This document shows, piece by piece, positions 52,580-56,142 of a stretch of 64,000 nucleotides of DNA. Within the stretch, counting starts at the first letter, position 1. Each line of letters opens with the position of its first letter. The notes under the pieces were generated by a model. That model did no database searches, was not told the DNA's origin, and was given only the letters and a program-made list of their open reading frames with translations. Where the stretch lies: sequence record PV467748.1. One strand, 5' to 3'. Made by a program: the position numbers and the translations under genes. The DNA is from a phage.

Positions 52580-53152
52580 TCAACTCGTTATTTCTATCCA
52601 GTGCTTCCTGCACAATGACACGTAAGAATCGTTGCCACCTATAGAAACTTGGGCTCCGTCCTTAATTGCGACACCATCTTGGACCCTAGCAGTCATAGTA
52701 GCTTTACGGCCGCAATGGCACACACCTTTGTACTCAACGAGTTTATCTGCCGTAGCGAGTAATTCAGCAGAACCAGGAAACAGTTTACCCTGAAAATCAG
52801 TTCTTAGCCCATAGCACATAACTGGAACATTATAATTGTCTACTATCTTTGCCAGTTGTTTTATCTGTGCAGGTTCTAAGAACTGTGCTTCATCCACAAA
52901 CACACAGTGGATATCTTTTTGAGATTCAGCCCAACGATAGAACTCGTATAGGTCCATATCCGGAGTCACTGCATTAGCCTCTTGACTAATCCCTATACGA
53001 GACGAAATGGTATGGCTTGATTCTCTATTGTCTATCGCAGGCTTTAAAAGGAGCACGCCCATACCACGTTCTTTGTAGTTATGAGCTGCCGTTAGCAATG
53101 AAGCGGTCTTACCTGAGTTCATTGCCGCATAGTGAAACATCAAACTTGCCAT
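52580..53152 (-). CDS. tk: thymidine kinase
   Basis: MASLMFHYAAMNSGKTASLL...VFVDEAQF...CHCGRKA collinear with remembered T4 Tk. Confidence 0.95.
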   Translation of the reverse strand: MASLMFHYAAMNSGKTASLLTAAHNYKERGMGVLLLKPAIDNRESSHTISSRIGISQEANAVTPDMDLYEFYRWAESQKDIHCVFVDEAQFLEPAQIKQLAKIVDNYNVPVMCYGLRTDFQGKLFPGSAELLATADKLVEYKGVCHCGRKATMTARVQDGVAIKDGAQVSIGGNDSYVSLCRKHWIEITS

Positions 53153-53877
53153 TTAGATACAATTCCTCTATAAGAACAATCAGGATAACCTTTATTCAGG
53201 GCTATCTTTTTAAACATATATGCCGAGGGCTTATTAGATTCTTCCCATAGCATTTTCAATTCGTCATAATATTTCCAAGCCTCATTTCTAATAGGAGAAG
53301 GTTTTCCTTTCATTGCACCTTGTTTACCAAACATAGGATTCTTTTCACCCTTTTTAGAATCACTCATGTTTTTAATAGTAGCACATGAATGCTTAAAGCC
53401 TTTTAATTTTTTAGAGGCTTGCCCTATTTTAGCTTTATGTTCGTCTGTAAACCCTATTCTATTTGAATAGTGGTTCTGGCCTTTATTAGAAGTAGTGTGT
53501 TTAGAAGCTTCTATCCTCGCGTCGCTCCATTTAACTCCTTTTTTAGACCTAGACATTTTATATTTGGTCAATAAAGATAACTTGGACCCTTTCTTTTTAC
53601 CACGTCCGCCATCAGCAAAATTTAAGGAATGTTTTCCATATTTTAATTTAGCTTTTTCTACTAAAGGAACTTCAGCGTCGTAAGCTTCATCCTCAGTTTC
53701 AAAGAATTTTAATATACGGGTTTTATAAGGGTGTTTTTTGCAAATATTTTTAACAACAGTACCACTTCCAAAATACCCATCAGAAAGATTATCGGTAGAA
53801 TGTTTTCCTACGTAATAATAGTTGGCCTTGAGGGTTTTTATTACAGTTAAATAATTATAATGGAATTCCTTTACCAT
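53140..53877 (-). mobile_element. free-standing GIY-YIG-type homing endonuclease-like gene (Seg-like)
   Basis: N-terminal YYYVGKHST...YFGSGT; basic C-terminal half with repeated NUMOD-like KKG...NPMFGK elements; overlaps tk start. Confidence 0.45.
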
Positions 53878-53886
53878 ATTACCTTC

Positions 53887-54081
53887 TTAAAGACTATTCA
53901 CATAAGCAATTAATTCATTTTCTTTTTTAGAAAACTCATCTTCTTCATCACCATACGCATCCCAAGGAAGAGAGTTATCTAATTCACATTCTGTATTGAG
54001 TTCCATAAGCTCATGGATAAGCTCAAACAATTTATCTTTCTGTTCTTTACTCAGACTCATAACCATTGCACCTTTAAGCAA
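53887..54081 (-). CDS. hypothetical protein (64 aa)
   Basis: ORF only. Confidence 0.35.
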   Translation of the reverse strand: MLKGAMVMSLSKEQKDKLFELIHELMELNTECELDNSLPWDAYGDEEDEFSKKENELIAYVNSL

Positions 54082-54269
54082 TATTCTTCTACATGCTGTT
54101 TACGTTTATTTTTATCTATAAAAGTATATTCAACATATTCACCGATATACCATTTATCAGTATTGTGTTGACTTTTTATAGGGCATTTAGTTACTCGTGT
54201 TTCGGTCCAGTGCCGAATAATTTCCGCTTTGTTTTTAGGGTCAAATGGATGCGGGTAATGTGCTTTCAT
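54057..54269 (-). CDS. hypothetical protein (70 aa)
   Basis: ORF only. Confidence 0.35.
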   Translation of the reverse strand: MKAHYPHPFDPKNKAEIIRHWTETRVTKCPIKSQHNTDKWYIGEYVEYTFIDKNKRKQHVEEYCLKVQWL

Positions 54270-54720
54270 AATCCACCACTATTAAATCAATATCAGGAGT
54301 AAACATGTCGATTAATTTAGAAACCTTGTCCCAATCACCGCCAGCAATACCACAACCTATACGAGGAATATAAATTCTTGGTTTAAACAAAAGGTCATTT
54401 GCTTGTAGATTTAATTCTATCATACAGTTTACTAAAGCACCGTAATCAAGATTAGGGCCTGGTTCGTATTGGGTATATAAATTATAGCACATTGCAAATC
54501 CATTAGGCTTATGTTTAAAAACAATAGACATATCACCTAATTTATCTCGAGAGCCGTATTCGGTAGTAGTCTTATCAATTTCTAAAATTTTAGGATAAGC
54601 TCTTGCTAATTGACCTGCTACACCTGAACCCATAGTGTGAAAACAGTTGCACCCATGTGCAATAATATTACCTTGGAGAAACAGGGCGACGATATCGCCC
54701 TTAATATAATTAATAATCAT
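54241..54720 (-). CDS. macro-domain-like protein (ADP-ribose binding/processing)
   Basis: GDIVALFLQGNIIAHGCNC...MGSGVAGQLA resembles the GDI...N-A-AN...GGGV-GAI macro signature. Confidence 0.45.
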   Translation of the reverse strand: MIINYIKGDIVALFLQGNIIAHGCNCFHTMGSGVAGQLARAYPKILEIDKTTTEYGSRDKLGDMSIVFKHKPNGFAMCYNLYTQYEPGPNLDYGALVNCMIELNLQANDLLFKPRIYIPRIGCGIAGGDWDKVSKLIDMFTPDIDLIVVDYESTLPASI

Positions 54721-55073
54721 TTAGAGTTTAGTCCTCGGTTGTAAGAGTCAACGAGTCTGTCTACCATAGACGCGCACATTTCTTTGTACTTTTTATCAGA
54801 TGGAACACATTCAGTAACGTTTAGACGTTGCTCGTATCTTTTAGAAAGAGTTTTCTCTTTCATTCGGCGATGCTCGACGTCGTTCTGTCCATCTTTAAAA
54901 GCAGCTGTTATTTTTGAACTGAATTCAATAACACATTCAGTATTACTAGGATGACAATAATCTTTTGCTGTACGGGTAGCATACTCGACAATTGAATTAT
55001 TACTATCACCAACTTGTGACGCTAATACTCCCGGAGCAATCAACATAAGCGCTATAGTCATCTGTTTAATCAT
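54717..55073 (-). CDS. secreted protein (118 aa) with signal peptide
   Basis: MIKQMTIALMLIAPGVLASQ signal sequence. Confidence 0.45.
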   Translation of the reverse strand: MIKQMTIALMLIAPGVLASQVGDSNNSIVEYATRTAKDYCHPSNTECVIEFSSKITAAFKDGQNDVEHRRMKEKTLSKRYEQRLNVTECVPSDKKYKEMCASMVDRLVDSYNRGLNSK

Positions 55074-55613
55074 TTAATATACCGCCTCAAACATCTTTTT
55101 AGATTTTAGGTAATTGGCCTTTTCTAGAACTTCGGAAGCATATTTACTGCCTGCTTTGACGTCCCAGCCCGCATTATAAGAAGCAATCGCTTTTCTCAGG
55201 TCACCTTTGTGAACATCAATCCAATAAGACAGTTCAATGTAGGCCCAAGAGGCACTGTTCTGTCGTTTTTGGACCATACGAATTATTTCTTTATCAGACA
55301 TCTTCCAACCTACCTGTTGAACACGACTTCTTAACGTAGGCAAGTAATTTTGGAACATGCCATAAGCATGGTGCTTATCTTTATTTAAACCCTGATTAAT
55401 TCCGGCGGATGATTCCTGCCATAGTAATCCGGCCATGATATATCCTAATCCTTTTTGATTAGGGTTTTCTTTGAACTTTCCCGACTTTTGGTATTGTTCA
55501 CCGAAAGCATACGCATAATGTAAATTGTCGAGCTGCTCACTGTTGAAAGTAGGCTCTACGCTATAGGCAGACATACTAACTGTCAATAGTAAAGTGGCTA
55601 ATACTTTTTTCAT
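55074..55613 (-). CDS. secreted lytic transglycosylase (SLT domain)
   Basis: signal peptide; LWQESSAG (catalytic Glu-Ser), GMFQ, SYNAGW motifs. Confidence 0.6.
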   Translation of the reverse strand: MKKVLATLLLTVSMSAYSVEPTFNSEQLDNLHYAYAFGEQYQKSGKFKENPNQKGLGYIMAGLLWQESSAGINQGLNKDKHHAYGMFQNYLPTLRSRVQQVGWKMSDKEIIRMVQKRQNSASWAYIELSYWIDVHKGDLRKAIASYNAGWDVKAGSKYASEVLEKANYLKSKKMFEAVY

Positions 55614-55625
55614 GAGTCCTCATTA

Positions 55626-56084
55626 TTAAAGATAGATTACTTTCGTGCTGGTTTTACCTTCTAAACGTTTAGAGTTAACAAATGCCATACGACATTTTAA
55701 TGAATATCCTTTATCAGGATGTTTACGATCTACGGTCATACCCAACCATAAGGTTTTATCGGTAATCTCGAGACGCAGTGGGCGATACACTTTACCAGGG
55801 ACAATTTCAGATTCTATGTCAGGAAGAGGCTCCTGGATTAAAAATTCATGGATTTCTTTAACATGATTGTGGAGCTTCTTGAACAAAGAGAAAACGTATT
55901 TTTCGTCAATTTCACGTTGGATAGCACGGTCCAACAGGTGATTAGAGTACTTAATAAAGAAAGCTGGGACCCCGCTCTTGATGGCGGCTTTTTTGATGGA
56001 CGCGTTAAGTTCACGAAATTCGGTTTCGAACTGACGACGTAATTTGTTGCGGCGGATGAATACTTCTGAATTAATTTCTGACAT
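55626..56084 (-). CDS. regB: RegB endoribonuclease
   Basis: VFIRRNKLRR...KYSNHLLDRAIQREIDE collinear with remembered T4 RegB; 152 aa. Confidence 0.85.
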   Translation of the reverse strand: MSEINSEVFIRRNKLRRQFETEFRELNASIKKAAIKSGVPAFFIKYSNHLLDRAIQREIDEKYVFSLFKKLHNHVKEIHEFLIQEPLPDIESEIVPGKVYRPLRLEITDKTLWLGMTVDRKHPDKGYSLKCRMAFVNSKRLEGKTSTKVIYL

Positions 56085-56099
56085 TTTGTAATCTCCTGT

Positions 56100-56142
56100 A
56101 GTTGATAGGTCTATAGTACCACGTCTACAGGAGATGTAAACT
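56100..56142 (-). promoter_or_regulatory. T4-type early promoter upstream of regB
   Basis: minus GTTTACATCTCCTGTAGACGTGGTACTATAGACC. Confidence 0.6.

What the first reader, a model, noticed from the sequence alone, without database searches (positions are those of the whole stretch)
54241..55613. Macro-domain-like protein followed by two signal-peptide proteins, one a lytic transglycosylase
A 159-aa protein with macro-domain hallmarks precedes two secreted proteins, the second with the catalytic ES, GMFQ and YNAG motifs of SLT-family lytic transglycosylases. None is among the T4 genes I can place in the tk-regB interval. A macro domain could reverse or read ADP-ribosylation, which is notable in a phage with ADP-ribosyltransferases; a periplasmic transglycosylase distinct from the endolysin could act at entry or in superinfection exclusion.
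Basis: partly seen in the sequence, partly recalled or inferred. Interest (0 to 1): 0.55.

Follow-up and report, generated by a model that had tools for sequence, protein, structure and literature searches.

The report
Known T4 genes vs.1, vs, tk.4
The three genes are the JS98-type copies of the long-catalogued phage T4 genes vs.1, vs and tk.4: an exported cell-wall-cutting enzyme, a small exported-looking protein annotated as a valyl-tRNA synthetase modifier, and a macrodomain shown in T4 in 2025 to defeat the bacterial DarTG2 defence. The finding is therefore mostly ordinary, with one loose end.

Summary
Three tightly packed minus-strand ORFs fill 54241-55613 exactly. The claim that they are not T4 genes is wrong. 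They are the Dhakavirus (JS98-like) orthologues of T4 vs.1 (65% identity), vs (45%) and tk.4 (56%), in the T4 order regB-vs.1-vs-tk.4.

- **Tk.4** is a real macrodomain of the ALC1/TARG1-like class. A 2025 preprint names the T4 orthologue AdfM and shows it is needed against DarTG2. Its active site is of the SCO6735 type: an invariant Gln stands where DarG and TARG1 have the catalytic Lys.
- **Vs**, the middle protein, is annotated as the "valyl-tRNA synthetase modifier".

The loose end is Vs. Every homologue has a Sec-type signal peptide and four invariant cysteines, and the gene always sits directly after vs.1. These features fit a periplasmic partner of Vs.1 better than a cytoplasmic synthetase binder.

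Verdict: already known, low interest. One testable annotation conflict is worth a specialist's attention.

The parts
55074..55613 (-). vs.1: exported GH23 (SLT / goose-type-lysozyme-like) muralytic protein, 179 aa. Signal peptide is about residues 1-18 and the catalytic Glu is E67.
55560..55613 (-). Predicted Sec signal peptide of Vs.1 (MKKVLATLLLTVSMSAYS)
   Evidence: n/h/c layout with -3/-1 rule sites. The same layout is present in 37/37 homologues. This part of the model has low pLDDT.
54717..55073 (-). vs: 118-aa protein annotated 'valyl-tRNA synthetase modifier'. It has a predicted signal peptide (1-19), a four-helix bundle (23-115) and four invariant Cys (40, 47, 89, 100).
   Evidence: 45% identical to T4 Vs and a member of PHROG 1256. 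The alignment is A3. The AF2 model has pLDDT 77. No PDB fold or sequence match was found. Only 8 relatives turn up among 1.84 billion representative proteins. The gene always abuts vs.1.
54241..54720 (-). tk.4 (adfM orthologue): stand-alone 159-aa ALC1/TARG1-like macrodomain of the SCO6735 type, with Gln84 at the catalytic position
   Evidence: Pfam Macro scores 33.8 bits against a cut-off of 22. It is 56% identical to T4 Tk.4. PDB sequence hits are Poa1p, BT1257, SCO6735, DarG and TARG1. Q84 lies in the column of TARG1 K84 and DarG K80, which equals SCO6735 Gln85. The T4 knockout phenotype is reported.
55626..56084 (-). regB (context): the endoribonuclease gene directly upstream, probably the first gene of the same early transcript
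   Evidence: Pfam REGB_T4 at 2e-69. A promoter-like site lies at 56140..56113 on the minus strand, and no terminator-like site separates the genes on that strand.

Best explanation
The region is the conserved early gene block vs.1-vs-tk.4 of T4-type phages, here in a JS98-like Dhakavirus. It is probably co-transcribed with regB, and the three genes are translationally coupled.

**(1) Tk.4.** It is the orthologue of T4 AdfM, a stand-alone macrodomain of the SCO6735 type. By inference it binds the ADP-ribose that the host toxin DarT2 places on thymidines in single-stranded phage DNA and hydrolyses it off, and it may also block DarT2 directly. Replication can then proceed in DarTG2-carrying hosts. 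Catalysis would use the invariant Gln84 to position the distal ribose and a water molecule, as shown for SCO6735, not the Lys used by DarG and TARG1.

**(2) Vs.1.** It is made early, exported by the Sec pathway and released into the periplasm. There its GH23 lysozyme-like domain, with Glu67 as the acid catalyst, cuts the MurNAc-GlcNAc bond of peptidoglycan.

**(3) Vs.** It is the orthologue of the ORF that T4 annotation calls the valyl-tRNA synthetase modifier. Its sequence predicts an exported, disulfide-stapled four-helix protein made in step with Vs.1.

**Shown here:** gene identity, synteny, folds and conserved residues.
**Taken from the literature:** the anti-DarTG2 phenotype in T4 and the Gln mechanism in SCO6735.
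**Inferred:** export, enzymatic activities and any Vs.1-Vs interplay.
For: **Identity and synteny**
- The DNA is 97% identical to JS98 over the whole region, with the genes annotated tk.4, vs, vs.1 and regB.
- T4 has the same order, with protein identities of 56%, 45% and 65%.
- 42 of 74 viral loci holding a vs.1 relative show regB-vs.1-vs-tk.4.

**Tk.4**
- It passes Pfam Macro. Weak but specific hits to DarG come from NCBIfam (1.2e-6) and PADLOC (2.6e-7).
- Its PDB relatives all belong to the ALC1-like class.
- Q84 is invariant in 16 family members and lies in the column of TARG1 K84 and DarG K80. That position is SCO6735 Gln85. Mutating it to alanine kills the enzyme, which removes DarT-made thymidine-ADP-ribose from DNA (PMC9411070).
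- The T4 tk.4 knockout becomes sensitive to DarTG2, and tk.4 was the single hit in the transposon screen (bioRxiv 10.1101/2025.11.20.689424).

**Vs.1**
- hhalign against goose lysozyme aligns all four motifs and the catalytic Glu.
- The invariant residues are listed, and signal peptides occur in 37/37 homologues.
- Distant relatives sit directly upstream of Rz-like spanin pairs, which is a lysis-cassette context.

**Vs**
- Searches give its identity, family, model and gene position.
Against: - No activity was measured for any of the three proteins of this phage.
- Function is transferred from T4 at only 45-65% identity.
- The T4 evidence for AdfM is genetic and comes from a preprint. Hydrolysis of ADP-ribosylated DNA by AdfM has not been shown, and the family lacks the Lys that DarG needs.
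- Vs.1 misses the Pfam SLT cut-off (15.0 bits against 21.3). It has no significant sequence match in the PDB, either alone or as a profile. Foldseek E-values are only about 0.05.
- The signal peptides are predicted only by a simple heuristic.
- An early, freely exported muramidase would be expected to harm the cell, so its activity may be weak, regulated or absent.
- The predicted export of Vs conflicts with its annotated cytoplasmic role.
Confidence: 0.8

Rival explanations
1. Vs is an exported, disulfide-bonded periplasmic partner of Vs.1, acting as an inhibitor, regulator or chaperone of the muramidase. In that case the 'valyl-tRNA synthetase modifier' label on this ORF is a mis-assignment or only part of the story.
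For: - Sec-type signal peptides occur in 26/27 close homologues (the exception is N-terminally truncated) and 13/13 of an extended set that includes the window and T4 proteins. One homologue has a lipobox instead.
- Four Cys are invariant even at about 20% identity. They flank the two helix-hairpin loops of the model.
- A Vs-type ORF abuts or overlaps the vs.1 stop codon in every T4-type locus examined. This holds where tk.4 or regB is missing and where the HMM missed the ORF.
- Full-length His-tagged T4 Vs was insoluble in the cytoplasm (PMC8076793).
- In T4 transposon data, insertions in vs and vs.1 are both about 10-fold rarer than in the flanking genes. Mean counts are 26.6 and 22.6, against 179-767 for the neighbours. 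Both drop further in minimal medium (log2FC -2.19 and -0.87), while tk.4 does not.
Against: - From my own knowledge, not checked here: classical work (Neidhardt, Marchin and colleagues, 1966-1980) showed that a roughly 10-kDa T4 factor binds cytoplasmic valyl-tRNA synthetase. It also showed that vs mutants lack the modification in vivo.
- The Vs model matches neither T4 Spackle nor any known lysozyme inhibitor.
- No interaction test could be run.
- The vs.1 effect in minimal medium is not significant after correction (adjusted p 0.155). The shared low counts could reflect polarity of vs.1 insertions on vs.
Confidence: 0.3
2. Vs is exactly what the annotation says, a cytoplasmic binder of host valyl-tRNA synthetase. 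Its hydrophobic N-terminus and cysteines serve that role, and its adjacency to vs.1 is only conserved gene order.
For: - The annotation is used in T4 and in all relatives and in PHROG 1256.
- The T4 vs knockout has a nutrient-dependent defect, which fits a role in translation.
- The mature size of about 11 kDa is close to the reported size of about 10 kDa for the factor (the reported size is from memory).
- Gene order is generally conserved in T4-type phages.
Against: - The N-terminus varies in sequence but always keeps the layout of a signal peptide.
- One homologue carries a lipoprotein signal.
- Four invariant Cys in CX6C and CX10C spacing do not form a usual cytoplasmic metal site.
- I could not find or read the evidence that links this particular ORF to the genetic vs locus.
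Confidence: 0.4
3. The macrodomain serves the phage's own ADP-ribosylation programme (Alt, ModA, ModB). It would read or erase ADP-ribose or RNAylation marks on host proteins, not counter a host defence.
For: - SCO6735, the closest characterised type, also removes ADP-ribose from proteins.
- T4-type phages do encode three ADP-ribosyltransferases.
- tk.4 is widely conserved even though DarTG2 is sporadic in hosts.
Against: - T4 tk.4 is dispensable on E. coli K-12 in both LB and minimal medium (insertion index 0.98; log2FC -0.07).
- It becomes important only when DarTG2 is present.
- tk.4 is not linked to alt, modA or modB in the genome.
Confidence: 0.12
4. Vs.1 is a hydrolytic goose-type lysozyme, or a non-catalytic peptidoglycan binder, and not a lytic transglycosylase.
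For: - At the sequence level the best aligned known protein is goose lysozyme, not Slt70.
- GH23 contains both chemistries, and the fold alone cannot separate them.
Against: - The positions of the auxiliary Asp residues of goose lysozyme (D86 and D97, numbering from memory) are not acidic in Vs.1. By my reading of the alignment, Tyr90 occupies the D97 position. This fits transglycosylases better.
- The invariant Glu67 argues against a mere binder.
Confidence: 0.3

Closest known systems
T4 Tk.4 = AdfM (anti-DarT factor Macrodomain; bioRxiv 10.1101/2025.11.20.689424)
   Same: 56% identity over the full length, the same size, and the same position after vs. Both have the same YTQ[YF] and PRIG[CA]GI motifs.
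   Different: It comes from a different genus (Dhakavirus, not Tequatrovirus). Anti-DarTG2 activity has not been tested for this copy.
Streptomyces coelicolor SCO6735 (PDB 5e3b), an ALC1-like macrodomain that removes thymidine-linked ADP-ribose from DNA
   Same: Both are stand-alone macrodomains. Gln occupies the position of the DarG/TARG1 catalytic Lys, and both carry the motif PRIGCG[IL]AGGxW.
   Different: Sequence similarity is remote (E 3e-8). Tk.4 lacks the five-residue-longer mobile loop, and SCO6735 Val25 corresponds to Gly23 here. SCO6735 is a bacterial, DNA-damage-induced gene rather than a phage counter-defence gene.
DarG antitoxin macrodomain (PDB 5m3i, 5m31) and human TARG1 (4j5r)
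   Same: They share the macrodomain class and fold, and both act on ADP-ribosylated thymidine in DNA.
   Different: Tk.4 has no catalytic Lys (Q84) and no TARG1 Asp125 (A126). It has no C-terminal DarT-binding domain. It scores 28 bits against a 250-bit NCBIfam cut-off.
T4 Vs.1 / PHROG 600; GH23 enzymes (E. coli Slt70, P. aeruginosa Slt/MltF, goose-type lysozyme)
   Same: It is the orthologue of T4 Vs.1 (65% identity). It has the lysozyme-like fold and the ES, G-x-x-Q and AYNAG-type motifs with the catalytic Glu. The SLT resemblance was already noted in 2006 (PMC1524935).
   Different: It is below the Pfam SLT threshold. It is a single small domain behind a cleavable signal peptide, and it has no known role. 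The T4 endolysin is gp e (GH24), and the virion lysozyme is gp5.
T4 Vs (valyl-tRNA synthetase modifier; PHROG 1256, PF26829)
   Same: 45% identity, the same length and the same position. The C-terminus SMVDRLVDSYNRGL is identical.
   Different: Nothing structural differs. The difference lies between the annotation (a cytoplasmic binder) and what the sequence predicts (an exported protein with two disulfides).
Periplasmic muramidase-inhibitor pairs (T4 gp5 lysozyme-Spackle; T6SS Tse3-Tsi3; g-type lysozyme-PliG). This is an analogy only.
   Same: In each pair a small exported protein is encoded with, or acts on, a lysozyme-fold enzyme in the periplasm. Tse3-Tsi3 and PliG complexes appear among the structural neighbours of Vs.1.
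   Different: Vs has no sequence or fold similarity to Spackle, Tsi3, PliG, Ivy or MliC. No interaction has been shown.

Membership tests
Macro domain (Pfam PF01661) | Score above the curated gathering threshold over the whole domain | tested here: met
   33.8 bits against a cut-off of 22. Residues 22-136 match profile positions 2-117 of 118.
ALC1/TARG1-like macrodomain class | The closest solved relatives belong to this class (Poa1p, BT1257, SCO6735, DarG, TARG1) | tested here: met
   phmmer against the PDB gives 6lfu 3.5e-10, 2afc 4e-10, 5e3b 3e-8, 5m3i 7e-6 and 4j5r 5e-3. No MacroD-type hit was found.
TARG1 / DarG type hydrolase | Catalytic Lys (TARG1 K84, DarG K80), plus Asp125 in TARG1 | tested here: not met
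   The Lys column is Gln in all 16 Tk.4-family sequences. The Asp125 column is Ala or Gly. The reference sequences were verified against PDB entries.
DarG antitoxin (NCBIfam NF048014) | Two-domain protein (macrodomain plus C-terminal DarT-binding domain) that scores above the equivalog cut-off | tested here: not met
   28.1 bits against a cut-off of 250. Only profile positions 1-142 of 338 are matched, and the protein is only 159 aa.
SCO6735-type macrodomain | Gln at the catalytic position (Gln85) and the PRIGCGLAGG loop | tested here: met
   Window Q84 lies in the same column as the Gln of family member P0208 in alignment A4. That Gln aligns with SCO6735 Q in NMIGQHG, chain residue 105, which is Gln85 after the tag. 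The loop reads PRIGCGIAGGDW here and PRIGCGLAGGTW in SCO6735. The role of Gln85 is taken from PMC9411070.
AdfM (anti-DarTG2 factor) | Orthology to T4 tk.4 | tested here: met
   56% identity over 155 aa with no gaps and the same neighbours.
AdfM (anti-DarTG2 factor) | Protects the phage from DarTG2 and removes or prevents thymidine ADP-ribosylation | not testable with these tools
   Only the T4 knockout phenotype from the literature is available.
GH23 / SLT lytic transglycosylase (Pfam PF01464) | Score above the Pfam gathering threshold | tested here: not met
   15.0 bits against 21.3, E 0.018. About a quarter of the homologues carry a precomputed PF01464 hit.
GH23 / SLT lytic transglycosylase (Pfam PF01464) | Catalytic Glu in an E-S motif, plus the G-[LM]-[MF]-Q and A/S-Y-N-x-G motifs | tested here: met
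   E67, S69, G85, Q88, Y146, N147 and G149 are invariant in 37 sequences. hhalign aligns them with goose lysozyme E73, GLMQ and AYNAG.
GH23 / SLT lytic transglycosylase (Pfam PF01464) | Lysozyme-like alpha-helical fold | tested here: met
GH23 / SLT lytic transglycosylase (Pfam PF01464) | Forms 1,6-anhydro-MurNAc products (transglycosylase rather than hydrolase chemistry) | not testable with these tools
   This needs muropeptide analysis.
Sec-exported protein (Vs.1 and Vs) | N-terminal n/h/c signal peptide with a -3/-1 cleavage site | tested here: met
   A heuristic scan finds it in 37/37 Vs.1, 26/27 Vs and 13/13 extended-set Vs sequences (window and T4 included), against 0/18 macrodomain controls. 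No dedicated predictor or experiment was available.
T4 Vs, valyl-tRNA synthetase modifier (PHROG 1256) | Sequence membership | tested here: met
   PHROG 1256 at 3e-34 over the full length. 45% identity to T4 Vs.
T4 Vs, valyl-tRNA synthetase modifier (PHROG 1256) | Binds and modifies host valyl-tRNA synthetase in the cytoplasm | tested here: inconclusive
   Binding cannot be tested here. The sequence features point to export (signal peptide, 4 invariant Cys, coupling to an exported enzyme). This is hard to reconcile with the annotated role but does not disprove it.

The most novel reading that the evidence does not exclude
The ORF that T4-type genomes call 'vs, valyl-tRNA synthetase modifier' encodes an exported, disulfide-stapled four-helix protein. 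It works in the periplasm with the adjacent exported GH23 enzyme Vs.1, for example by holding back an early-expressed muramidase. The sixty-year-old synthetase-modifier label on this ORF would then be mis-assigned or incomplete. vs.1-vs would be a new phage-encoded two-gene envelope module.
Probability: 0.3. Interest if true: 0.55.

Novelty: already known. Interest (0 to 1): 0.2.

Why it matters
As filed, it matters little. These are catalogued T4-family genes. The macrodomain's anti-DarTG2 role and the SLT resemblance of Vs.1 are both in the literature.

Two points add some value.
- **Tk.4/AdfM active site.** The whole family carries the SCO6735-type Gln instead of the DarG/TARG1 Lys. This predicts which catalytic mechanism to test and which point mutant (Q84A) to make.
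- **The Vs conflict.** The annotated "valyl-tRNA synthetase modifier" has every sequence feature of a periplasmic protein and is locked to an exported muramidase gene across distant T4-type phages. Resolving this would either correct a very old annotation or reveal how an exported-looking protein reaches a cytoplasmic enzyme. It would also give a first function to vs.1.

Tried and rejected
- **PDB sequence search with Vs.1.** The single sequence found nothing. The 37-sequence profile gave only insignificant hits, though g-type lysozymes were among them.
Goose lysozyme worked instead.
- **Fold search with the Vs model.** It returned only generic helical bundles (best E 0.86, probability 0.21). 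There was no Spackle, Ivy, PliG/MliC or Tsi3 hit. I therefore dropped the idea that Vs belongs to a known inhibitor family.
- **Exhaustive profile search for Vs relatives.** It found 8 hits, mostly close family members or fragments and none an obvious cellular homologue (the library carries no annotation). One was a probably spurious 3,694-aa repeat protein.
- **PADLOC.** It gave nothing for Vs or Vs.1.
- **The ORF-to-gene assignment for vs.** I could not read the T4 genome review (PMC150520 is not held). Literature searches found no paper that discusses a signal peptide in Vs. The original basis for the assignment remains unchecked.
- **Structure prediction.** The macrodomain was therefore judged from sequence only, and no Vs.1-Vs complex could be modelled.
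- **Membership as a DarG or TARG1 orthologue.** I rejected it because the catalytic Lys and the second domain are missing.
Full report
**What is there**

Three ORFs fill 54241-55613 on the minus strand:
- 55613..55074, 179 aa
- 55073..54717, 118 aa
- 54720..54241, 159 aa

They are transcribed in that order, so the macrodomain gene is the last of the three. The vs.1 stop codon is followed at once by the start of the next gene (TAAATG). The last two genes overlap by ATGA. RegB is encoded directly upstream at 56084..55626 (Pfam REGB_T4, 2e-69), with a promoter-like site at 56140..56113. No terminator-like site separates the genes on that strand.

**Where it comes from**

The 1.9-kb region matches 504 phage records. 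The best matches, at 94-97% identity, are JS98-type phages of the genus Dhakavirus. JS98 annotates the three genes as vs.1, vs and tk.4, flanked by regB and tk.3. T4 has the same order, regB-vs.1-vs-tk.4-tk.3-tk.2-tk.1-tk. The window proteins are 65%, 45% and 56% identical to T4 Vs.1, Vs and Tk.4.

The sequence features it described are right.

**Tk.4, the macrodomain**

- It passes Pfam Macro (33.8 bits against 22) and belongs to PHROG 335.
- Its solved relatives are yeast Poa1p, Bacteroides BT1257, Streptomyces SCO6735, DarG and human TARG1, which make up the ALC1/TARG1-like class.
- NCBIfam and PADLOC both return DarG as the best hit, but far below membership level (28 bits against 250).
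- A 2025 preprint (bioRxiv 10.1101/2025.11.20.689424) reports that tk.4 was the single T4 gene depleted in a transposon screen on a DarTG2 host. A clean knockout became DarTG2-sensitive, and the authors renamed the gene adfM.

I checked the catalytic residues. In an alignment with 16 Tk.4-family members, the column of TARG1 K84 and DarG K80 is Gln in every family member (Q84 here). The TARG1 D125 column is Ala or Gly.

That Gln corresponds to SCO6735 Gln85. Published work (PMC9411070) shows that SCO6735 removes DarT-made thymidine-ADP-ribose from DNA, that Q85A is inactive, and that the inactive protein still inhibits DarT.

So the phage protein is not a DarG or TARG1 orthologue. It is a stand-alone macrodomain of the SCO6735 type, and its most likely mechanism follows that enzyme.

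In T4 the gene is neutral without DarTG2.

**Vs.1, the exported muramidase-like protein**

Sequence methods alone are weak:
- Pfam SLT scores 15.0 bits, below the 21.3 cut-off.
- PDB sequence searches found nothing significant.

The family evidence is stronger:
- An alignment of 37 relatives has W65, E67, S69, G85, Q88, N89, Y146, N147, G149 and Y158 invariant.
- hhalign against goose lysozyme aligns E67 with the catalytic E73. It also aligns GMFQ with GLMQ, SYNAG with AYNAG, and the C-terminal helix.
- All 37 homologues have a signal-peptide-like N-terminus.
- Relatives at about 30% identity in other large phages sit directly upstream of Rz-like i-spanin and o-spanin genes, which is a lysis-cassette context.

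The SLT resemblance of vs.1 was published in 2006 (PMC1524935). Whether the enzyme is a transglycosylase or a hydrolase cannot be decided here.

**Vs, the middle protein**

It is the orthologue of the T4 ORF annotated as valyl-tRNA synthetase modifier (PHROG 1256). Its sequence predicts something different from a cytoplasmic binder:
- It has a canonical signal peptide.
- Four cysteines are invariant.
- The model is a four-helix bundle in which the cysteine pairs flank the two hairpin loops.
- No fold or sequence relative exists in the PDB.
- Only 8 relatives turn up among 1.84 billion representative proteins.

Gene context points the same way. In 74 viral loci holding a vs.1 relative, an HMM finds a Vs-type ORF abutting vs.1 in 46. 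Inspection of the T4-type loci without an HMM hit finds it too: an ORF of 99-119 aa with a signal peptide and the same pattern, FCx5-6C...Cx9-10C...GL. One homologue has a lipoprotein signal instead. The pair persists where tk.4 or regB is absent.

Published observations fit this picture but do not prove it:
- Full-length His-tagged T4 Vs was insoluble in the cytoplasm (PMC8076793).
- In the T4 transposon data, insertions in vs and vs.1 have mean counts of 26.6 and 22.6. The flanking genes tk.4, tk.3, vs.3 and regB have 290, 767, 652 and 179.
- In minimal medium, vs drops with log2FC -2.19 (adjusted p 0). vs.1 drops with -0.87 (p 0.0055, adjusted p 0.155). tk.4 is unchanged.
- Polarity of vs.1 insertions on vs could explain the shared effect.

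Against the periplasmic reading stands the classical evidence that a roughly 10-kDa T4 factor binds valyl-tRNA synthetase and that vs mutants lack the modification. I know this from memory and could not read the papers that tie the genetic locus to this ORF. I leave the conflict open and give the periplasmic-partner reading about 30%.

**Verdict**

- Observation: confirmed.
- Interpretation: partly supported.
- Novelty: already known, since these are T4-family genes with published annotation and, for tk.4, a published function.

The additions from this work are the Gln-type (SCO6735-like) active site of the Tk.4/AdfM family, the structural confirmation of Vs.1 as a GH23 enzyme with a lysis-cassette ancestry, and the conserved vs.1-vs pairing of two exported-looking proteins that conflicts with the Vs annotation.

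Noticed in passing
window 53140-53877 (- strand): A 245-aa seg-like homing endonuclease ORF (NUMOD3 motif, GIY-YIG-like N-terminus) sits between tk and the tk.2-like ORF and overlaps the tk start by 13 bases. Among 50,697 phage records only vB_EcoM-VR5 has it at this site (89% identity). JS98 lacks it.
   Followed up: partly
L055 2965-4147 and L056 2965-4239: Distant Vs.1 relatives (PHROG 600, about 30% identity, with signal peptides) are followed directly by Rz-like i-spanin (phrog_739) and o-spanin (phrog_812) genes. In those phages the family probably supplies the secreted endolysin.
   Followed up: partly
L052 3833-4246, L053 3815-4234, L013 3869-4303 (and others): Many T4-type relatives carry a third signal-peptide ORF of about 140 aa (PHROG 4957, function unknown) between vs and tk.4. 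This makes a run of three exported proteins. It is absent from this window and from T4.
   Followed up: no
L029 3549-3875: This Vs homologue has a lipoprotein signal (…VVVALSGC…) in place of the usual AxA cleavage site. That is an independent hint that the family is targeted to the envelope.
   Followed up: no
L047 3974-4429: This Tk.4 homologue reads YTKF where all 16 aligned family members read YTQ[YF]. It therefore has a Lys at the catalytic position used by DarG and TARG1. This could be a natural switch between the two active-site types.
   Followed up: no
T4 genes vs and vs.1 (HIDEN-SEQ Data S8, bioRxiv 10.1101/2025.11.20.689424): Transposon insertions in both vs and vs.1 are about 10-fold rarer than in the flanking non-essential genes, even in LB. 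The paper does not comment on this, and it highlights only vs for the minimal-medium defect.
   Followed up: partly
window 53887-54081 and 54057-54269 (- strand): The two small ORFs downstream of tk.4 match DUF7438 and DUF7202 (tk.3). The second overlaps the end of tk.4 by 29 bases. The DNA match to JS98 starts only at window position 54056, within the first ORF, so this small-ORF stretch is a variable spot.
   Followed up: no
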